Source of the DNA: a virus
Reading direction: 5' to 3' (one strand)
DNA: 64,000 nt
IMG/VR virus record: IMGVR_UViG_3300026488_000022
Location: 16,615 to 80,614 of that record
The translations under genes were made by a program, and so were the position numbers. Below are positions 6,690-28,707 of this stretch, one piece after another. The first letter of the stretch is position 1. Each line of letters starts with the position of its first letter. Under the pieces are notes generated by a model that saw nothing but the letters and a program-made list of their open reading frames with translations, made no database searches and was not told the origin of the DNA.

Positions 6690-6878
6690 TATAAAATAAA
6701 AGTAAAATTTAATTTAAAAGCTCTATTATAATATATAATAACTTTAAGGGTTTGGACAGTGTTGGACAGTAACAAAAAGCCCTAAAATTCGGACTTTTAA
6801 CAACTTGCAAACATTTATAATCAGTAAAAAATATCATTTGGGCGGTCAAGAACATTTTATAATTTTTGTAAAAAACTC

Positions 6879-19169: not shown

Positions 19170-19292
19170 AAAAGAGATTTTAATATTTTAAAAATATATC
19201 AAAGAGAAATAAATTGCAGACCAAAAGTTGTTAAAAACAAAAAGAAATATACAAGGAAAGTAAAGCATAAAAAAGCTTTACTAAACTTTTAA
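19167..19292 (+). CDS. 41 aa basic cargo peptide, ArfA-like
   Basis: MKRDFNILKIYQREINCRPKVVKNKKKYTRKVKHKKALLNF behind the cassette promoter and RBS. Confidence 0.6.
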   Translation: MKRDFNILKIYQREINCRPKVVKNKKKYTRKVKHKKALLNF

Positions 19293-20615
19293 ATCAGGCT
19301 CACCACCAAGTGGGTCTGTGCTTCCTACATTTGTAGGTTTGTTTTGCCCTTCTGAACTATTTTGACTCATTTTTACTAAATCTTGAAAGAATTGTGCTTC
19401 ACTTCCTGTTAAAAATGCAGGAACAACATTTTTGTCAGCTCCTTCAAAATCCATTTCTGGTAAATCAACTAAATCTCTTGCCTCATTTAATGTAGCAAGT
19501 CCTGTTGCAAACAATGTTCTTGCACTATCAGCTTTTACATCAAGTGCAGTATCAAGTTCTGTTATTCTTCCAAAATCAAACTCAAAATAATATTTTCCAT
19601 AACCAAATTGTTTCCCTAAAAAGAGATTAATTTGGTCTTGTATTCTATAAAGATAAGGTCTGACTGCAGTATTAAAAACAACTTTCATTAATTCTTGAGG
19701 TTTTCCTGCACTTTTATCTTCTCCTCCTAAAACAAGAGAATTTAATTTAAAAACTCTTAAAACTCTTTTTTCACTTATATCAAGGCTATCTAATAACATT
19801 GCGTCTCTTGGACTTGCTTGTACTGTTTTATAATCCATTTTAGCGGGTAAAACAGCAATTCCTCTTCTCTCACTTCCTCCTTTACCATATAAAGCATTGA
19901 ATTGGTCTCTTAATTCATCTATTTGTTGAGGTGTTAGAGCATATTCTGCTTTTAAAATACCAGCTAAAATTACACTACCCTCATAAAACTCTTTTAAACT
20001 ATCAATAGCGTCCTTTTCTAAAGTTAAAGTGTCAAGTAAAGGTGCTACACTCGGCAAACCGTAATATGCATTATTTAATGTTGGGTTAATAATCCAAATA
20101 AGTTCGTTTTCTTTATAAGCAATTTGGTCATTATAAATATACCCTTTAATAAATTTAGAGGCGTCAGGTACAACTTGCACTAAATGTGGTTGGGTTAAAA
20201 ACCAAGTTTCATAACTTCCTTTAACGTTTTCAAAAGTTAAAGGCGCTACCCCTGAAAGTAATAAACCTTGAATTGCAAGTTCAATTATAACTCCCCAGGA
20301 CCAAAAAGGATTTGGTCTATATTCCCATTCTGCTAATTTTTTATCTTTAACAGGCAGTTTTTTACCCGATTTATCTAACCTATAAAGTCTTGGGATTGCT
20401 TGTCCTCCAGCTTTTGCGATATAATCAACTGCACTAAAAACAAGCTCACTTGTATGAAAAGTGTTTTCCATTCCACTTGTAGCAAGTTGATTGTTACCTA
20501 ATTTATAATCCTCAGCTATTTTTTTATTTGCTTTTGTTGCCTTTGTGTCCATATAAACTATTGTTTGTTTTTCTGTTTTTATATCCTTAGGTTTTAAAAA
20601 ATCAAATAATCCCAT
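19281..20615 (-). CDS. Portal protein (HK97/T5-like)
   Basis: VFSAVDYIA, RPNPF, YYGLPS, AVLPAKMDYK and TLNEARDLVDLP motifs. Confidence 0.92.
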   Translation of the reverse strand: MGLFDFLKPKDIKTEKQTIVYMDTKATKANKKIAEDYKLGNNQLATSGMENTFHTSELVFSAVDYIAKAGGQAIPRLYRLDKSGKKLPVKDKKLAEWEYRPNPFWSWGVIIELAIQGLLLSGVAPLTFENVKGSYETWFLTQPHLVQVVPDASKFIKGYIYNDQIAYKENELIWIINPTLNNAYYGLPSVAPLLDTLTLEKDAIDSLKEFYEGSVILAGILKAEYALTPQQIDELRDQFNALYGKGGSERRGIAVLPAKMDYKTVQASPRDAMLLDSLDISEKRVLRVFKLNSLVLGGEDKSAGKPQELMKVVFNTAVRPYLYRIQDQINLFLGKQFGYGKYYFEFDFGRITELDTALDVKADSARTLFATGLATLNEARDLVDLPEMDFEGADKNVVPAFLTGSEAQFFQDLVKMSQNSSEGQNKPTNVGSTDPLGGEPDLKV

Positions 20616-20646: not shown

Positions 20647-20654
20647 TATATCAG
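20647..20654 (-). promoter_or_regulatory. Putative late promoter (CTGATATA)
   Basis: 32 bp upstream of the portal ATG, fused to a leftover cassette RBS (aaacaaaaggagaaaaaatg). Confidence 0.7.
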
Positions 20655-20701
20655 TATAAAAAACAAAAGGAGAAAAAATGAAAAAGAAGAAAGAGCGGAA
20701 G

Positions 20702-20811
20702 CTCAATTGAAGCTTGTTTTACAAACCTCAATTGAACGCCCATTTCAGGCGTTCTAAATCAAACACCCATTTCAGGTGTTTTAAATTGAACACCCACCCC
20801 AGGTGTTCTAC
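20702..20811 (-). ncRNA. Candidate late-expressed four-hairpin small RNA (three 27-bp tandem stem-loop units plus one long hairpin)
   Basis: Units at 20731-20757, 20758-20784 and 20785-20811 with compensatory stem changes. The fourth hairpin needs G-U pairs available only on the minus strand. Own late motif at 20815-20822. Confidence 0.65.
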
Positions 20812-20814
20812 TAT

Positions 20815-20822
20815 TATATCGG
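20815..20822 (-). promoter_or_regulatory. Putative late promoter (CCGATATA) facing the non-coding hairpin array
   Basis: Motif immediately 5' of the first hairpin, with no ORF at the usual ~30 bp distance. Confidence 0.6.
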
Positions 20823-20825
20823 AAA

Positions 20826-21878
20826 TTAAACTAATCTTAATGACACATAATTTCCAACATAAGTTTTTTCACTTAAAGTAGCATCTGTGGTAAATAAAGG
20901 AAAATGTTTAATGCTTAAAGTTTCTTTAAAAAATTCACTAAAATAAACTTTTCCGTCTATTTCCTGTCTTAACCTAAATCTTAATTGGTTTGTTCTCCCC
21001 CATTGTCTTGTAGCTCCAATAAAATCAAAAAGAACTTCATTTTTAGTAAAAGCATATAAAGGATAATAACTGCCCCTTCTGTTTTGAGAAACACTACCTC
21101 TGTTTCCTGAATTATTAAAGTTTGTGTTTTTATCAAATCCCCATACTTCTAATTTTATTCCATCAGGAAAATCTTTCCCTAATTCAAAACCACCCGCAAA
21201 CACAACATTAAAAAACCTTTTTTGTATTGTATATGTGTCACCTGAATTAAAACTTTGATAAGTAACATCCCAACTTGTTAAATCACTATCATTCATAATT
21301 GCACTTTTTAAAAAACCATTCCCGTTAAATGCGTCTATATAAGATGTTTGAGGGATAAGGGCATTTCTTGCTTTAACATAGGAATTTCCTTCCTTTCTTG
21401 CCAATCTTAAATTGTATTGTCCGCCATATTTTAAAGGCTCTTCATAGACTATTTTAACAACCCCAGAAGGCGCACCATCTGGAAATTCTAAATGTTCTAC
21501 ATAACCGGCAGGATTAATCACTTGTCCGTGAAAATCCCAATCTTCAAACAATTCGTCATTAATATAAACTTTTACTAAATCTTTTTTTGGAAAAATAACT
21601 TGTCTTAAAAACAAACGATTTTTGCTGGATAAATTATCCGTATGATTATAAAATACCATCACATTCTTTTTGCTGTTTTCAGCTCCAAAAGGTATTAAAT
21701 GTTCATTATTTATTGCGTCATTTACGCTTTCATAAGAAATTGTATTATCTCGTACAACATAATATTTTAATTCAGTTCCATTATCCACTATAACAAGCTG
21801 GTTTAATTGATAATTTTTTAAACTTATATAATCATTGCTTTTTAAAACCGGTAATTTATAATGAGTATAAGTTGCCAT
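20826..21878 (-). CDS. Virion structural protein (paralog of the C-terminus of 21888-23753)
   Basis: KVYINDELFEDWDF and HFPLFTTD..TYVGNY shared with the neighbouring gene. Confidence 0.6.
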   Translation of the reverse strand: MATYTHYKLPVLKSNDYISLKNYQLNQLVIVDNGTELKYYVVRDNTISYESVNDAINNEHLIPFGAENSKKNVMVFYNHTDNLSSKNRLFLRQVIFPKKDLVKVYINDELFEDWDFHGQVINPAGYVEHLEFPDGAPSGVVKIVYEEPLKYGGQYNLRLARKEGNSYVKARNALIPQTSYIDAFNGNGFLKSAIMNDSDLTSWDVTYQSFNSGDTYTIQKRFFNVVFAGGFELGKDFPDGIKLEVWGFDKNTNFNNSGNRGSVSQNRRGSYYPLYAFTKNEVLFDFIGATRQWGRTNQLRFRLRQEIDGKVYFSEFFKETLSIKHFPLFTTDATLSEKTYVGNYVSLRLV

Positions 21879-21887
21879 TTTTTCTCC

Positions 21888-23753
21888 TTATATTATTTTC
21901 ATTAATTTGTAATGTCCTACAAAAGTATTGACATTATCTTCAGGGTCTGTTGTAAAAACAGGAAAATTACGCACACTAACTACACTTGATAACCATTGAC
22001 TAAACAAAACATCTCCAGAATTATCAACTTTAATCATTCTAAAATGATATACACCGTTTTTGTCTAAATTATAAATTTTATTTCTTGTAAATTTTCCTAC
22101 TGGAACTAACCTACCTTGTGCCTCCTTGTTATCAGGAATATGTTTTTTAGCTGGTGATTTACTGTCTCTTGCCCAAACTTCTATAACAAAACCATCTGGC
22201 AAATCAGTTTCTTTTGGAAACTCAGCTATATAGGCTAAATTTGGACTTGCTTTTTCTACATCAATTGTATAATCACGATTATTGACGCCTTTATAATGAC
22301 AGATGTAACGCTCAAAACCATAACTTGTATTAACTAAATCTACACTATCTAAATAATATCTAATACCTCCTTGGTCAGTAATAAATTTAGTTATCATTTT
22401 TGGTCTTGAAATTATAAAATTTGCACCTTCTTTTCTATATAAAACAAGCTTATAATCTCCAAGACCGATTGGCTCAACATATTCAATTTTTATTTTATCA
22501 TCATCGTTTAAAGCAGAATTAAACTTTAAATGAGTTGTATAATCTGGATTTAAACTTTCAACTTGGTCGCCAAAATCCCAATCTTCAAACACCTCATCAT
22601 TAACATAAACTTTAATTAAATTTCTACTTTTATAAATATATCTTTTTAAAAACAACAAATTTTTACCTGAAATATCTTCCCCTTTTCTGTAAATAAAAAC
22701 TTTATTAGTCGGGTCAGCACTTAGATTAAAACTAAAAAGCTCTCCTGTTGAGGTATCCACTCCAATTACATAAGGGTTATTAGGTTTTGCTTTAGGATTT
22801 TTACCATATGCATAAAAAATAGGATTATCTTCTTTTGTAAATTGATAATTGGTTTTTTTAACAATAAAATAAGGACTTAAACTTCCAAAATCATCACCTA
22901 AAACCACATCATATTGAGCATTATCACCATAAGCACCTACTACAAGTTGTGTGTCAGTTAAATTTCCGCCTTTCCCAGCAAGATAAGTTTGGTAAAAATT
23001 ATCACCATACATTGTTAAGAATACTTGTTTGGCATACGGGTCAGCTGATGTAGAGGCAGTAAAACTTGCTCCTGTATAATTATCATCATTATTTGTATTT
23101 GTAGCATTAAATTCTACAATACCATAAGCATTTCTTTCAATATAAACTCTTTGGACGTTTTCGGTGTTTTCATTAGGTACTAATTGTTCCCCTATGCCTG
23201 TATCTGCGTCTTCTTTTTTCCAATAAGTTTTAGTATCAATAATATCACAAATATCTTTAGGTGTGTATCTCCTCACTTCATTAACTTCACAAGGATTTTG
23301 TTTTTCGGCGTCTGATATTTTATGTATCTGAACTCCAAGATAAAACCAATTTGGATTACCTTCATCATCTGTTCTTGCCTCATATAAACCAGCTTTTTTC
23401 CTATTGAAAAAAACCCAAGTTCCTGTTGCTTTTTGTACTAACCATTGCTCACCGAGATGGTCTGCTGGGTCTGGCAAATCAGCATAAGTTTCAACTTCGC
23501 CTTCCCAACCATCAAAATTTGCATTACCTCCTAAGCTAACTTCAACCCAACTAAGCAAATCGTCTTGTAATTGCCAAAATTTTTGGTCTTCTTGATTATA
23601 AACAACCATTCCTACTTTTTTTCTTAAGTCAGGAATGTTATCACGTTCTTCAGTTGTTGCTACAACACGAAAACCACCTTCTAAATGAATATCCTCAATT
23701 AACGGATATTCACCACCGCCTGTATCAAATTTACCTGTTATTTTAATTGCCAT
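21888..23753 (-). CDS. Virion structural / fibre protein
   Basis: N-terminal GGFRVVATTEERDNIP..RKKVGMVVY motif common in phage fibre/decoration proteins. Confidence 0.65.
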   Translation of the reverse strand: MAIKITGKFDTGGGEYPLIEDIHLEGGFRVVATTEERDNIPDLRKKVGMVVYNQEDQKFWQLQDDLLSWVEVSLGGNANFDGWEGEVETYADLPDPADHLGEQWLVQKATGTWVFFNRKKAGLYEARTDDEGNPNWFYLGVQIHKISDAEKQNPCEVNEVRRYTPKDICDIIDTKTYWKKEDADTGIGEQLVPNENTENVQRVYIERNAYGIVEFNATNTNNDDNYTGASFTASTSADPYAKQVFLTMYGDNFYQTYLAGKGGNLTDTQLVVGAYGDNAQYDVVLGDDFGSLSPYFIVKKTNYQFTKEDNPIFYAYGKNPKAKPNNPYVIGVDTSTGELFSFNLSADPTNKVFIYRKGEDISGKNLLFLKRYIYKSRNLIKVYVNDEVFEDWDFGDQVESLNPDYTTHLKFNSALNDDDKIKIEYVEPIGLGDYKLVLYRKEGANFIISRPKMITKFITDQGGIRYYLDSVDLVNTSYGFERYICHYKGVNNRDYTIDVEKASPNLAYIAEFPKETDLPDGFVIEVWARDSKSPAKKHIPDNKEAQGRLVPVGKFTRNKIYNLDKNGVYHFRMIKVDNSGDVLFSQWLSSVVSVRNFPVFTTDPEDNVNTFVGHYKLMKII

Positions 23754-23764
23754 TTAAAAACTCC

Positions 23765-24577
23765 TTAACTGATAGTACTATCTAATGAACTACCTTGTTG
23801 ATAAGCAGTTCGCAATACTTTATATTCAATTGTAATACCATAATCATTTGTTATATTTATATTATCCAAATAAGTAAAATCAACAGCAAAACCAGACTCA
23901 TTGTCACGCCAATCATTGATATTTCCCCATTCAGCTGGATAAATAACATAACAATATTTATTTGTGCTTCCTATTGAAAAACTATAATGTCCAGCATACC
24001 CACTTTTCAAGGCACTGTTTTCAAGATTTTTAACCTCATCTTCAGTTAATGTATCATTCACTGAAGTTCCCCAATAAACTCTTGCCCTCCAATAAACACG
24101 AAAATCACGGCTAAAGATTTGCCCTTTTGTATTAATTCCACTAATTCTCCAAGTATAAGAACTGTTAATTCCGCTTGAAGTTTTATCGTCCCCAATATCT
24201 AAATCTTCCTGTCCATCGTTTGCTAAATTATCACCTAAAATCGCATTAGCATTTACATCTTTAATTCTAATTGAGTTTTCTTGAATGTTTTCTGAATGAC
24301 TTGTAGTCCATTTAAAAGTTCTAACTCCTCCGTTTATAACTTGGCCCACTTCTAACTGCGTAACTTGTCCATCAATATAAAAACTTGTAAAAGCAGGGTA
24401 TTGATAAGGAAATAAAATCATTTTTAAAACTTCACAAGGTTGTAGCCCGTTTATATCCGTTCCTGCTTCTAAACCTCCGTGTGTTTCAGGCACTGTATCC
24501 TCAGTTTGCATAACACAACCAGCTTGGTCTCCTACCCCTATATCTGGATAAATTATAGAAAATTTATTATTTGCCAT
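23765..24577 (-). CDS. Virion structural protein (Ig-like beta-rich)
   Basis: GGLEAGTDING..LKMILFPYQYPAF motif, beta-rich. Confidence 0.6.
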   Translation of the reverse strand: MANNKFSIIYPDIGVGDQAGCVMQTEDTVPETHGGLEAGTDINGLQPCEVLKMILFPYQYPAFTSFYIDGQVTQLEVGQVINGGVRTFKWTTSHSENIQENSIRIKDVNANAILGDNLANDGQEDLDIGDDKTSSGINSSYTWRISGINTKGQIFSRDFRVYWRARVYWGTSVNDTLTEDEVKNLENSALKSGYAGHYSFSIGSTNKYCYVIYPAEWGNINDWRDNESGFAVDFTYLDNINITNDYGITIEYKVLRTAYQQGSSLDSTIS

Positions 24578-24629: not shown

Positions 24630-24721
24630 AAATTTTAAAATTTTTGTAAAAAACTCTTGACATAAAGTAAAAAATATTTTATAATTCTAAATGTAAAACA
24701 AAAAACAAAGGAGAAAATATG
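24630..24721 (+). repeat. Dispersed cassette repeat, copy E (sigma70 promoter + RBS part only)
   Basis: tttttgtaaaaaactcTTGACA(24657-24662)-17-TATAAT(24680-24685)..aaacaaaggagaaaatATG. Confidence 0.9.
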
Positions 24722-25288
24722 GCAACAATTAAACAACTTGGAGAAATTAAAGTAGTAGAAATTAGAGGGGTTGGAGAAAACATCTCCGACGAAACTAAAA
24801 GAATTTTTTTAAGTAAAAGTGGGTTAAAAATAATTGAAGAATATGAAAGAACAAAAGAAAGCAATCCTGAGGAAGCACCAAGCTGGGAAGATGTTATTAA
24901 CAAGCTTGAACTTTATTTTAACAAAAACAACAAACCTATTTTAACTGCTAAAAAAGATAAAACAAAAATAACAATTAACAAATATATTGAAAGCAGTTAT
25001 AGGGGAACTTCTTATATTGAAGAAACAAGTGAAGGAGTTACAATAGTTAGCGCAACAGGTGCTGGAAGACTTGGTGAGCATACTGAATTTATTGCTACTA
25101 TACCAGAAGGATGTTATGTTATTGTTTATAGTGGTGGGAGATATCACAAAGGTTGGACTTGTTTTAAAAATGTAGAAGGAGAACTTAAAACTTATGAATT
25201 TTACAATAGAGGCAAATATGTAGAAAAACCTGATTATGAAGACGCTAAAATAGCTTTTGGATTAATGGATTGTGCTTGTGAAGATTAA
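24719..25288 (+). CDS. Hypothetical cassette cargo protein
   Basis: 189 aa, antisense to the late operon, behind the cassette promoter. Confidence 0.8.
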   Translation: MATIKQLGEIKVVEIRGVGENISDETKRIFLSKSGLKIIEEYERTKESNPEEAPSWEDVINKLELYFNKNNKPILTAKKDKTKITINKYIESSYRGTSYIEETSEGVTIVSATGAGRLGEHTEFIATIPEGCYVIVYSGGRYHKGWTCFKNVEGELKTYEFYNRGKYVEKPDYEDAKIAFGLMDCACED

Positions 25289-25291
25289 TTT

Positions 25292-26650
25292 TTACACGAC
25301 CTGAATTTGTAAATTTTGCAATTTCCACCACCCACTTGTTAAATACCTTAAAGCACCTACGGACAAATCAAAATGTCCGTCCTTGTTTCTTTCTATTGTT
25401 TTTCCATTGCTATTTTCTTTCCAATGAGCTAATTTTAATTCTTCAATCAATTGCATACAATTTTCTGATATGAATAATTTTCCTTTTTGAAATGCCGTGT
25501 TAATGTCCCTAATGCTTTCTACTAATTGAATTGGTGCGGGTTGTGTATAGTAACTATAACTATACGCCATATCTGCCATTGTCAAACTTGCACTTGGGTC
25601 ACAAAATCTTACAATCTGCATATCAGGATTTTCACAATATCTTTGTTCTATTTCTCTAAAATGTTTAATGTGCCATTCAATAGGCATTTGCCCCGCCATA
25701 TATTCATCTAAAACATAAATATTACCAGTCATTGGCTCTATCCAAGCCATAACAAAACTTGTATTGTCCCTAAAACCAATATCAATTCCTACTGCAAACG
25801 TATCTTTTGTTGTCATTTTATTTTTTAAATCACTAACTCTAAATACATTTTTTTCTAAATCAAAAGCATAAAATACCTGCAAATCCTCACTAAACCCACT
25901 TTGAAACTCACATAAATATTCTTGTTCAAAACTTCTTTTATCAAGTTTTGCTTTTATTGACTCAATCATTTCTTTTGTTATCATAGGATTATCATAAACT
26001 GTAACTTTTTTACAAAAATAATCGTTTCTTTGCCCACATCTTTTCCATAACTTATAAAAATCATTATCAAAAGTTCTTGGTGTTCCTATAAAATAAGTTT
26101 TAGAAAACATAAAGCCGTTTTCATCAGTACCATAATCGTTTTGTGCTGGTGAAATGTAGGTTTCCCAAATTTCAAGAACATTATTTATACTCGCAGTTTC
26201 ATCAAAAATAACTAAACTGAATTTATCTCCAAGTGCATTTTCATAATTTTTTTCTGTAACTACACGAAATTTAGCACCATTTTCTAATGTAAATGTTAAA
26301 CCTTTCATATCCTTTGATTTAAAAGGTAATTGTAGTTTATTTACATCTTTTTCAACATTACTAAAAATAGCTTGTGCATTTGCAAATGTAGGTGTTACTA
26401 ATAATATACTTGCATTAGGAATTAAAAGTTCTGACAATGCAATTTTTGACATAATTGTAGATTTACCTGCCCTTCTTGACATTAAAAAAACACCAACATT
26501 AAAATCAGCTTTTTGTATCCTATCAATTATCTCTTGTTGATATTTTGTAGGTGTAAATTCTAACAATTTTAATACTTTATTATAATCAATTTTTCTTTTT
26601 ACTTTTTTATAAAGTTCTATTTCTTGATTTACAGGTTTAAATTCTGACAT
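25292..26650 (-). CDS. terL: Terminase large subunit
   Basis: SRRAGKS Walker A, VIFDE Walker B, GTP coupling motif, FEQEYLCEF, GIDIG nuclease motif. Confidence 0.95.
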   Translation of the reverse strand: MSEFKPVNQEIELYKKVKRKIDYNKVLKLLEFTPTKYQQEIIDRIQKADFNVGVFLMSRRAGKSTIMSKIALSELLIPNASILLVTPTFANAQAIFSNVEKDVNKLQLPFKSKDMKGLTFTLENGAKFRVVTEKNYENALGDKFSLVIFDETASINNVLEIWETYISPAQNDYGTDENGFMFSKTYFIGTPRTFDNDFYKLWKRCGQRNDYFCKKVTVYDNPMITKEMIESIKAKLDKRSFEQEYLCEFQSGFSEDLQVFYAFDLEKNVFRVSDLKNKMTTKDTFAVGIDIGFRDNTSFVMAWIEPMTGNIYVLDEYMAGQMPIEWHIKHFREIEQRYCENPDMQIVRFCDPSASLTMADMAYSYSYYTQPAPIQLVESIRDINTAFQKGKLFISENCMQLIEELKLAHWKENSNGKTIERNKDGHFDLSVGALRYLTSGWWKLQNLQIQVV

Positions 26651-28548: not shown

Positions 28549-28707
28549 TATAAAAATAAAAGTAAAATTTAATTTAAAAAACTCTATTATAATATATAAA
28601 AACTTTAAGGGTTTGGACACTTTGGACAGTAACAAAAAGCCCTAAAATTCGGACTTTGTTGATAACGTAAATTAAATTTTAGTTGTTTTTTGTTAATTTC
28701 GGCGGTA
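28541..28707 (+). repeat. Dispersed cassette repeat, copy G (core, degenerate right end, no cargo)
   Basis: Core intact to ~28657. A remnant atttcggcggt at ~28697-28707 lies inside the 3' end of the next ORF. Confidence 0.9.

What the first reader, a model, noticed from the sequence alone, without database searches (positions are those of the whole stretch)
20702..20822. Late-promoter-driven tandem-hairpin small RNA immediately upstream of the portal gene
SEEN on the minus strand, right after CCGATATA: GAACACC-uggggug-GGUGUUC, AAACACC-ugaaaug-GGUGUUU, GAACGCC-ugaaaug-GGCGUUC at a 27 nt period, then UCAAUUGA-GGUUUGU-aaa-ACAAGCU-UCAAUUGA. Stem differences between units are compensatory (G-C vs A-U), and the last hairpin uses two G-U pairs possible only on this strand. 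The portal has its own promoter at 20647, so this is not simply its leader. INFERENCE: an undescribed structured ncRNA, such as a multivalent protein sponge, an antitoxin or crRNA mimic, or a portal/packaging-associated RNA. A tandem operator or terminator array is the alternative.
Basis: partly seen in the sequence, partly recalled or inferred. Interest (0 to 1): 0.8.

Follow-up and report, generated by a model that had tools for sequence, protein, structure and literature searches.

The report
Late-promoter triple-hairpin RNA before portal gene
Three uncultured hydrothermal-vent phages share a conserved, strand-specific RNA of three near-identical hairpins plus one long hairpin, placed directly after a late promoter just upstream of the portal gene; it matches no catalogued RNA family, and its function (probably a stable late regulatory RNA) is untested.

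Summary
On the minus strand a late-promoter motif (CCGATATA, 20822-20815) is followed at once by three 21-nt hairpins with a 27-nt period (20808-20734) and a 13-15-bp hairpin (20735-20703). The array is unique in the genome. Two syntenic relatives keep it, and every stem substitution preserves pairing: 120 of 120 cells paired, 6 double compensatory changes, 0 of 500 shuffles as good. Wobble pairs favour the minus strand.

It has no match in Rfam, cultured phages or plasmids. It is absent from 17 more distant relatives' records and from the portal flanks of 41 relatives. In those with the upstream gene in view, terL usually abuts the portal promoter.

New here: 25-45 nt downstream lies a conserved, single-stranded CU-rich box. 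It is a perfect 17-26-nt antisense to the shared leader and ribosome-binding site of the phage's own early genes, and it tracks each genome's own leader variant.

Best reading (about 0.4): a stable late non-coding RNA, with the hairpins as a stability or protein-binding domain and the box as an antisense seed. A discrete transcript is not shown, because no terminator is conserved. Rivals are a portal leader, a 3' end module, a DNA site and a cassette relic.

The scan noted this same stretch earlier in another reading of this genome; that follow-up is withheld.

The parts
20808..20825 (-). Promoter P1: conserved block TTTCCGATATAATAGTAG (core CCGATATA 20822-20815). The predicted start is at or next to G20808, the first base of hairpin 1.
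   Evidence: The motif family has 14 copies in the genome, all on the minus strand. Twelve lie 19-35 nt before an SD and start codon of genes in the structural (late) block. 17 of 18 positions are invariant in G038 and G039. The start site is inferred, not measured.
20788..20808 (-). Hairpin 1: GAACACC UG GGG UG GGUGUUC (7 Watson-Crick pairs, then U.G and G.U, then a 3-nt loop).
   Evidence: Pair 5/17 is A-U here and in G039 but G-C in G038. Model R2 scores it 42.9 bits.
20761..20781 (-). Hairpin 2: AAACACC UG AAA UG GGUGUUU.
   Evidence: The outer pair is A-U here and U-A in both relatives, a transversion double change.
20734..20754 (-). Hairpin 3: GAACGCC UG AAA UG GGCGUUC.
   Evidence: Pair 5/17 is G-C here and in G038 but A-U in G039.
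20703..20735 (-). Hairpin 4: UCAAUUGAGGUUUGU-AAA-ACAAGCUUCAAUUGA. It has 13-15 bp, shares 2 nt with hairpin 3, and has two wobble pairs on this strand only.
   Evidence: Three pairs change on both sides among the three genomes. Of the window's two wobble pairs, the G.U lies between A-U in one relative and G-C in the other, and the U.G is U-A in both.
20683..20704 (-). Variable linker. In this genome it is a 4-bp GC hairpin (GAGC-UUCC-GCUC) followed by a U/C-rich run, which looks terminator-like.
   Evidence: G038 keeps the small hairpin without a U run. G039 has neither. It is therefore not a conserved terminator.
20664..20682 (-). Conserved CU-rich box TTCATTTTTTCTCCTTTTG. It is the reverse complement of the shared early-gene leader, SD and ATG. 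Read on the plus strand it is an orphan ribosome-binding site with a 10-codon ORF.
   Evidence: It is a conserved island between non-alignable flanks. It matches the early leader consensus. Duplex energies with early ribosome-binding sites are -24 to -27 kcal/mol on average (best -29 to -38), against -14 to -16 for late ones. It tracks each genome's own leader variant. It is predicted 75-96% unpaired.
20647..20654 (-). Promoter P2 (CTGATATA) of the portal gene.
   Evidence: conserved in the relatives.
19281..20615 (-). Portal gene (444 aa).
   Evidence: PF04860 at 2.8e-38 and phrog_12 at 8.5e-53.
20826..21878 (-). Upstream 350-aa ORFan, last gene of a three-gene insert. It is a paralogue of the 621-aa gene at 21888-23753, with only weak fibre-like leads.
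   Evidence: Only 3 homologues, at 57-59% identity. No Pfam, PHROG or PADLOC hit. Paralogy E = 3e-34. Atlas leads score below 0.9.

Best explanation
The array is the 5' domain of a non-coding RNA transcribed late in infection from promoter P1 on the minus strand.

Shown:
- P1 belongs to the phage's structural-gene promoter family.
- Three near-identical hairpins (7 Watson-Crick pairs, an invariant U.G/G.U tandem, a freely varying 3-nt loop) and one long hairpin follow it directly. They are kept by compensatory evolution in the only three genomes that carry them.
- 25-45 nt further on, a conserved, predicted single-stranded CU-rich box is perfectly antisense over 17-26 nt to the leader, Shine-Dalgarno and AUG shared by the phage's own early genes.

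Inferred:
- Transcription starts at the base of hairpin 1. The RNA would then have a base-paired 5' end and four stable helices, which would protect it from nucleases and could give three equivalent docking sites for a hairpin-binding protein.
- The exposed box pairs with early mRNAs, and in cis with the portal ribosome-binding site on read-through transcripts, and so masks translation once late transcription begins.
- The 3' end would come from processing or Rho action in the G-poor, pyrimidine-rich linker, not from an intrinsic terminator.
For: - Promoter family: 14 copies, all on the minus strand, 12 of them 19-35 nt before an SD and start codon of genes in the structural (late) block; 12 observed against 2.5 expected in the window; none in the early half. 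P1 is 17/18 invariant in the relatives although synonymous sites in the adjacent portal gene are only 69-75% identical.
- Structure: 100% of 120 pair cells are standard pairs, 6 pairs change on both sides, and 0/500 shuffles reach this; slid controls give 30-48% pairing.
- All 9 units keep pairs 1/21 and 5/17 complementary, with no mixed unit.
- Strand: minus-strand fold -50.7 against -37.5 kcal/mol on the plus strand. The hairpin 4 wobble pairs are Watson-Crick in the relatives, one of them lying between A-U and G-C.
- The portal has its own promoter P2, giving a typical 31-nt leader, so P1 is not needed for the portal.
- Box: a conserved island; strong duplexes with early but not late ribosome-binding sites; it follows each genome's own leader flavour, with perfect runs of 17, 22 and 26 nt; unpaired probability 0.75-0.96.
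- No plus-strand promoter of the phage's early type lies upstream of the box.
Against: - No transcript data exist.
- No intrinsic terminator is conserved after hairpin 4, so a discrete small RNA is unproven.
- Only three closely related genomes carry the element, so the covariation rests on few independent events, and unit-to-unit gene conversion could account for one of them (G039 unit 3).
- The box is equally well described as a leftover copy of an early-gene ribosome-binding site, kept uniform by recombination among the roughly 9 leader copies per genome.
- Late transcripts that run antisense through the four complete plus-strand cassettes would also contain anti-leader sequence, so the box is not unique in that respect.
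- No second copy of the hairpin occurs in any of the three genomes, and no partner protein is identified.
Confidence: 0.4

Rival explanations
1. It is a cis-acting 5' leader. P1 transcripts run on into the portal gene and the late genes downstream. The hairpins act only on that transcript, by protecting its 5' end, by masking the portal ribosome-binding site through the CU box, or by modifying RNA polymerase as the HK022 put RNA does.
For: There is no conserved terminator between P1 and the portal. Folds of the full leader pair a CU-rich segment with the portal SD in all three genomes. The layout of structured RNA immediately after a promoter resembles putL, which is about 70 nt, has two stem-loops and lies just downstream of PL (PMC9378689).
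Against: The portal already has its own conserved promoter 168 nt downstream, with a normal short leader. Each downstream late block also has its own promoter, so long-range antitermination is not obviously needed. The segment that pairs with the portal SD differs between genomes. The portal is a low-copy protein, so two tandem promoters are unexpected. Relatives with the same portal family do without the element.
Confidence: 0.25
2. It is the 3' end module of the inserted three-gene operon (270, 621 and 350 aa). A stack of hairpins would stop or pause transcription and block 3'-to-5' exonucleases, insulating that operon from the portal operon. P1 would be incidental or the ancestral portal promoter.
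For: The array starts 17 nt after the operon's stop codon. It fills the slot where the repeated cassettes of this genome carry a terminator-like hairpin ahead of the next late promoter. This genome has a small GC hairpin plus a U-rich run after hairpin 4. The array occurs only in the genomes that have the insert.
Against: P1 lies between the stop codon and the hairpins and is better conserved than the coding sequence beside it. None of the hairpins is followed by a conserved U tract, and the terminator scan did not call the array. A simple exonuclease barrier does not explain the invariant U.G/G.U tandem in all 9 units.
Confidence: 0.15
3. It is a DNA-level site: three palindromic operators or enhancer sites for a dimeric regulator of P1 or P2, a terminase recognition (pac) site, or a hairpin signal in single-stranded DNA such as a priming site.
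For: There are three 21-bp palindromes at a regular 27-bp spacing between two promoters, centred 104-158 bp upstream of the predicted P2 start. They lie near the packaging genes. CTG, a known primase recognition triplet in some bacteria (from memory), sits in every loop.
Against: Half-sites never occur in mixed form: both arms always change together. The conserved centre TG-NNN-TG is a direct, not an inverted, repeat. The upper stem of hairpin 4 differs in sequence between genomes yet stays complementary. The terminase genes are about 4.5-7 kb away, and relatives lack the site. GC skew shows no switch here.
Confidence: 0.08
4. It is a relic or cargo of a plus-strand early cassette. The orphan early ribosome-binding site at 20664-20682 once headed, or still heads, a plus-strand early unit whose payload is the hairpin array, for example an early anti-defence decoy RNA such as a CRISPR-repeat or antitoxin mimic. 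The present minus-strand promoter would then be coincidental.
For: The box is identical to the leader of the plus-strand early cassette genes, which include defence-related candidates such as a Csx20-like gene. Phages are known to carry promoter-proximal repeat-mimic RNAs (PMC10651486). Tandem-repeat antitoxin RNAs followed by a hairpin exist in bacteria (PMC3401426); that phages can mimic them is taken from memory of the pseudo-ToxI work, which was not read here.
Against: No early-type promoter precedes the box in any of the three genomes, and G039 lacks even the nearest downstream cassette. The plus-strand mini-ORFs (10, 7 and 11 codons) are not conserved, and the longer plus-strand frame is broken in G038 (and direct reading). 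The plus-strand fold is 13 kcal/mol weaker, and the hairpin 4 wobbles become C.A mismatches there. No CRISPR-DR family reaches even a third of its threshold. The unit is a 27-nt plain hairpin, against pseudoknotted repeats of 31-46 nt in the aligned ToxI sequences, with a few of about 60 nt and the other two families generally longer.
Confidence: 0.07

Closest known systems
P1/P7 C4 and P4 CI phage antisense RNAs
   Same: From memory, not read here: these are phage-encoded small RNAs that pair with repeated complementary sites, including ribosome-binding regions, on the phage's own transcripts to shut off a gene set. The conserved CU box is antisense to a sequence repeated at about 9 early genes.
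   Different: Those RNAs serve immunity or lysogeny and are cut out of leader transcripts. Here the RNA would be late and lytic, carries a triple-hairpin 5' domain, and has no sequence or Rfam relationship to them. Its activity is untested.
T4 RegA translational repressor
   Same: From memory: it turns off translation of many early mRNAs late in infection by occupying their ribosome-binding sites. The box would do the same job.
   Different: RegA is a protein. Here the proposed effector is an RNA. No RegA homologue was sought or found.
HK022 put RNA and lambda nut boxB (PMC9378689)
   Same: These are structured RNA hairpins encoded immediately downstream of a phage promoter. putL is about 70 nt with two stem-loops.
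   Different: put has two long irregular stems with a triplex, not three identical 9-bp triloop hairpins. A boxA-like CGCUCUUU occurs only in this genome. The loop centre is variable here, whereas from memory boxB loops are fixed. No terminator that needs bypassing was identified, and there is no Rfam match.
Type III antitoxin RNAs (ToxI, CptI, TenpI) and phage pseudo-ToxI (PMC3401426)
   Same: The layout is promoter, then short tandem direct repeats, then a palindromic hairpin.
   Different: No toxin gene follows; the next gene is the portal, PF04860. The units are 27-nt plain hairpins rather than the 31-46-nt pseudoknots of the aligned ToxI repeats. The hairpin lacks a U tract. A late-type promoter drives the array.
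RNA anti-CRISPRs (Racr, solitary repeat units; PMC10651486)
   Same: These are stem-loop RNAs placed just downstream of a promoter in a phage that also carries a candidate anti-CRISPR gene (Csx20-like).
   Different: There is no similarity to any Rfam CRISPR-DR family. The period is 27 nt with 6-nt linkers, so there is no repeat-spacer logic. The host repeat is unknown. The array is not adjacent to the Csx20-like gene, which is about 6 kb away.
REP/BIME-type intergenic palindromes and T7 RNase III sites
   Same: From memory: these are stable hairpins between operons that shape mRNA 3' ends and stability.
   Different: Those elements are dispersed in many copies, or are single long irregular helices. 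This array is unique in its genome, directly repeated, and preceded by its own promoter.

Membership tests
Any Rfam family (including phi29 prohead RNA and CRISPR-DR, as far as Rfam holds models for them) | Score at or above the family's gathering threshold | tested here: not met
   The best hits are generic hairpin matches: mir-95 at 20.4 bits against a threshold of 67.5, and CRISPR-DR53 at 15.5 against 45 on the plus strand.
Type III toxin-antitoxin antitoxin RNA | Tandem direct nucleotide repeats downstream of a promoter | tested here: met
   2.8-3 copies with a 27-nt period, directly after P1.
Type III toxin-antitoxin antitoxin RNA | The repeats are followed by a terminator and then an endoribonuclease toxin gene (PMC3401426 criteria) | tested here: not met
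   The next gene is the portal, PF04860 at 2.8e-38. Hairpin 4 has no conserved U tract. No PADLOC hit in the neighbouring genes points to a toxin.
Type III toxin-antitoxin antitoxin RNA | Each unit folds as a pseudoknot (31-46 nt in the aligned ToxI repeats) | tested here: not met
   The unit is 27 nt: a plain 9-bp hairpin plus a 6-nt A/U linker.
Racr / viral solitary repeat unit | Sequence and structure similarity to the host's CRISPR repeat | tested here: inconclusive
   No Rfam CRISPR-DR match. No repeated copies in 37 genomes of the one phylum that could be reached. The host is unknown, so its repeats could not be compared.
Racr / viral solitary repeat unit | Promoter within 250 bp upstream | tested here: met
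   P1 ends 6 nt before hairpin 1.
HK022 put-type antiterminator RNA | About 70 nt with two stem-loops, acting on the polymerase that made it so that it reads through downstream terminators | not testable with these tools
   Only the position after a promoter is shared. The architecture differs, with three identical short hairpins plus one long one. No downstream terminator dependence can be measured.
Intrinsic (Rho-independent) terminator array | A G+C-rich stem immediately followed by a U tract, conserved in relatives | tested here: not met
   The terminator scan does not call any of the four hairpins. The U-rich run after a small GC hairpin exists only in this genome.
Trans-acting antisense small RNA | An accessible seed complementary to target ribosome-binding sites | tested here: met
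   Perfect complementarity of 17-26 nt to the genome's own early leaders; duplexes of -29 to -38 kcal/mol; box 75-96% unpaired.
Trans-acting antisense small RNA | A discrete transcript with defined 5' and 3' ends | not testable with these tools
   The promoter is inferred from the motif family. No terminator is conserved. No expression data were available.

The most novel reading that the evidence does not exclude
A lytic phage uses a late-promoter-driven non-coding RNA as a global switch. A nuclease-resistant triple-hairpin 5' domain carries a single-stranded seed that is antisense to the leader, Shine-Dalgarno and AUG shared by all of the phage's early genes. One abundant late RNA would then silence the whole early gene set, doing with RNA what T4 RegA does with protein. 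The seed co-evolves with each genome's own early leader.
Probability: 0.2. Interest if true: 0.8.

Novelty: new variant of a known kind. Interest (0 to 1): 0.5.

Why it matters
Few structured non-coding RNAs are known from lytic phages, and almost none from uncultured environmental phages. This element has unusually clean comparative support: a conserved promoter, full pairing, compensatory changes and strand-specific wobble pairs. It comes with a concrete, testable idea. A late RNA carrying an antisense copy of the common early-gene leader could explain how such phages shut off early genes without a RegA-like protein. If the hairpins instead dock a host or phage protein, they define a new RNA-protein recognition motif, namely a tandem U.G/G.U under a triloop. 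Either way it would be a candidate new RNA family. The caveat is narrow distribution (three genomes) and no expression data.

Tried and rejected
- **Plus-strand protein coding.** The 55-aa ORF at 20714-20881, and a 68-codon frame from the orphan ATG read through one TGA, are rejected. The 27-nt period is 9 codons, so an open frame repeats itself. The frame differs in G038, which has three TGAs. TGA is used as a stop by the neighbouring gene in G038. The compensatory stem changes are non-synonymous.
- **Known RNA families.** None matches.
- **Cultured phages and plasmids.** Only chance matches of 23-49 nt.
- **IMG/VR pattern scans.** Arrays appear only in the two relatives; the other 84 contigs that matched carry a single palindrome each.
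- **More distant relatives.** Portal-based searches of viral, genome and metagenome collections, followed by inspection and covariance-model searches, found no array. Relatives at 64-66% portal identity have a plain promoter before the portal.
- **Extra hairpin copies that could be regulated targets.** None in any of the three genomes.
- **CRISPR-like or toxin-linked copies in host-like genomes.** None in the 37 genomes reachable through the one Desulfurellales MAG handle. The real host is unknown.
- **Replication-origin reading.** No GC-skew change at the array.
- **tRNA-like reading.** No tRNA genes, and the loops lack U33 and R37.
- **boxA.** The motif is present only in this genome.

Full report
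**Where the window lies.** The window is bases 16615-80614 of an 80,614-bp IMG/VR virus record with 26.5% G+C. It has a 127-bp terminal repeat that looks like an assembler overlap of a circular assembly. An earlier follow-up report of this scan calls it a hydrothermal-vent phage.

**Check of the observation.**
- Tandem Repeats Finder reports period 27, 2.8 copies.
- The hairpin pattern occurs 3 times against 0.03 expected in the window and nowhere else in the genome.
- The minus-strand RNA folds at -50.7 kcal/mol, z = -6.07. The complementary strand reaches only -37.5.

**The promoter claim.**
- C[CT]GATATA occurs 14 times in the genome, always on the minus strand. Twelve copies are intergenic, 19-35 nt before a Shine-Dalgarno sequence and start codon of genes in the structural (late) block.
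- In the window there are 12 copies against 2.5 expected. All lie in the structural half (1-32 kb) and none in the other half.
- Distant relatives have (A/C)CGATATA in the same place before their portal genes.
- P1 at 20822 matches the CCGATATA sub-class that directly follows a stop codon elsewhere (8863, 14318). Unlike those, it is followed by the hairpins rather than by a ribosome-binding site.
- If the motif acts like a -10 element, transcription would begin at about G20808, the first paired base of hairpin 1. This is an inference.
- The portal (PF04860) has its own copy, P2, at 20654-20647, 31 nt before its ATG.

**Relatives.**
- Two IMG/VR genomes, G038 (83.9 kb) and G039 (78.9 kb), are syntenic at 65-92% nucleotide identity across aligned blocks. 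Both carry the whole arrangement.
- On the three-way alignment, all 120 pair cells of the four helices are standard pairs. Six pairs change on both sides and two more change through a wobble. None of 500 shuffles reaches these values, and sliding the partner drops pairing to 30-48%.
- Across the nine short hairpins, pair 1/21 is G-C six times, U-A twice and A-U once. Pair 5/17 is A-U six times and G-C three times. No unit is mixed.
- U8.G14 and G9.U13 are invariant. The three central loop bases vary freely.
- In hairpin 4, the window's G.U pair lies between A-U in one relative and G-C in the other, and its U.G pair is U-A in both. On the plus strand both would be C.A mismatches.
- Synonymous third positions in the portal gene are only 69-75% identical, whereas the array is 85-89% identical and its stem changes are all compensated. 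The structure is therefore under selection, and the evidence favours the minus strand.
- Caveat: there are only three genomes, and one unit (G039 unit 3) could have been copied from unit 1.

**Distribution.**
- The array is unique in each of the three genomes.
- Covariance models of the whole array and of one unit find nothing in the complete records of 17 more distant relatives. They also find nothing in the portal flanks of 41 relatives at 31-66% portal identity.
- Many of those relatives place the large terminase gene directly before a plain promoter and the portal. Others, including the two at 64-66% identity (L180, L194), have cassette-like or opposite-strand sequence there instead.
- In the three-genome clade, about 4.6 kb lies between terL (25292-26650) and the portal. 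It holds a plus-strand early gene and a promoter-led operon of three ORFan genes (270, 621 and 350 aa). The last two are paralogues with only weak fibre-like leads. The array closes this insert.
- Rfam, cultured phages and plasmids give no match.

**What follows the array.**
- No intrinsic terminator is conserved. This genome has a 4-bp GC hairpin plus a U/C run, G038 has the hairpin without a U run, and G039 has neither. The terminator scan does not call the array.
- After a variable, G-poor, pyrimidine-rich linker comes an island of conservation: TTCATTTTT(C)TCTCCTTT at 20682-20664.
- This box is the reverse complement of the leader that the phage's early genes share. Those genes have a near-perfect TTGACA-17-TATAAT promoter followed by ...AAAAACAAAGGAGA(G)AAAAATG.
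- On the plus strand the box has no such promoter and heads ORFs of only 10, 7 and 11 non-conserved codons.
- On the minus strand, as part of any P1 or read-through transcript, it is predicted 75-96% unpaired.
- Its duplexes with early ribosome-binding sites average -24 to -27 kcal/mol, with the best at -29 to -38. Late sites give -14 to -16 and a reversed-sequence control gives -11 to -15.
- Each genome's box fits its own early leaders best, with perfect runs of 17, 22 and 26 nt. This includes a C/T difference upstream of the SD that separates G038 from G039.
- Either selection for complementarity or short-patch recombination among leader copies would explain this. The data do not decide between them.

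**Interpretation.**
- My best reading (about 0.4) is a late non-coding RNA. P1 fires into a four-helix 5' domain whose base-paired 5' end would resist nucleases and could offer three equivalent protein-docking sites. The exposed CU box would mask the common early ribosome-binding site, and in cis the portal site on read-through molecules.
- Shown: the promoter family, the conserved strand-biased structure, and the antisense box.
- Inferred: the start site, the stability, the 3' end and the silencing.
- Rivals:
  - A purely cis-acting portal leader (0.25).
  - A 3' end and insulator module of the inserted operon (0.15).
  - A DNA-level site (0.08). Against it: both arms always change together, the conserved centre is asymmetric, and the upper stem of hairpin 4 varies yet stays complementary. 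There is also no GC-skew change.
  - A relic or cargo of a plus-strand early cassette, including decoy-RNA ideas (0.07).

**Comparison with known systems.**
- The promoter, tandem repeat and hairpin layout recalls type III antitoxin loci. But no toxin gene follows, and the units are 27-nt plain hairpins rather than the 31-46-nt pseudoknots of the aligned ToxI repeats (PMC3401426).
- It recalls Racr solitary repeats placed after promoters (PMC10651486). But no CRISPR-repeat similarity was found, and the host is unknown.
- It recalls HK022 putL, which has two stem-loops just after a promoter (PMC9378689). But the architecture differs, and no terminator dependence can be tested.
- In function, the proposed mechanism is closest to the P1 C4 and P4 CI antisense RNAs and to the role of T4 RegA. 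Both comparisons are from memory.
- I therefore file it under no named family. It is a new variant within the known kind of phage-encoded structured regulatory RNA.

**Earlier notes.** The scan had already noted this stretch in another reading of the same genome; that follow-up is withheld. Earlier notes on the repeated promoter cassettes of this genome agree with what I found.

Noticed in passing
window 6930, 19152, 24707, 26931 (+ strand), and many minus-strand sites in 39-64 kb: Early genes share a near-perfect sigma70-type promoter (TTGACA-17-TATAAT) and an almost identical leader and ribosome-binding site (AAAAACAAAGGAGA(G)AAAAATG). Four such units sit as plus-strand cassettes inside the minus-strand late block.
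   Followed up: partly
window 20826-24577 and 24719-25288: About 4.6 kb lies between the large terminase gene and the portal gene in this clade; many relatives have terL directly before the portal promoter. It holds a plus-strand 189-aa early gene and an operon of three ORFans (270, 621, 350 aa). The 621- and 350-aa proteins are paralogues (E = 3e-34) with weak tail-fibre, Mtd_N and DUF2793-like leads.
   Followed up: partly
window 20693-20704: CGCUCUUU, resembling the boxA antitermination motif, follows hairpin 4 in this genome only. It is not conserved in G038 or G039.
   Followed up: yes
window 20714-20881 (+): A 55-aa plus-strand ORF spans the array because the 27-nt period equals 9 codons. 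With the orphan ATG at 20678 and one in-frame TGA it would reach 68 codons in G000 and G039, but the frame is broken in G038.
   Followed up: yes
genome ends (G000:C1 1-127 and 80488-80614): The 127-bp direct terminal repeat matches a common assembler k-mer length, so it more likely marks a circular or permuted assembly than true virion ends.
   Followed up: no
L194 380-660: A relative with a 66% identical portal has three copies of CCAGTGGACAAACCATCTAT, each inside a repeat of about 100 bp, upstream of its portal promoter. The sequence is reminiscent of the GTCCAAACCC motif in this genome's cassettes.
   Followed up: no
window 28636-28657 and cassette copies near 6750, 18980, 26760: Each repeated cassette carries the hairpin AAAGTCCGAATTTTAGGGCTTT followed by T-rich sequence about 70-90 nt upstream of its late promoter. 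It is probably the terminator that insulates successive late operons.
   Followed up: partly
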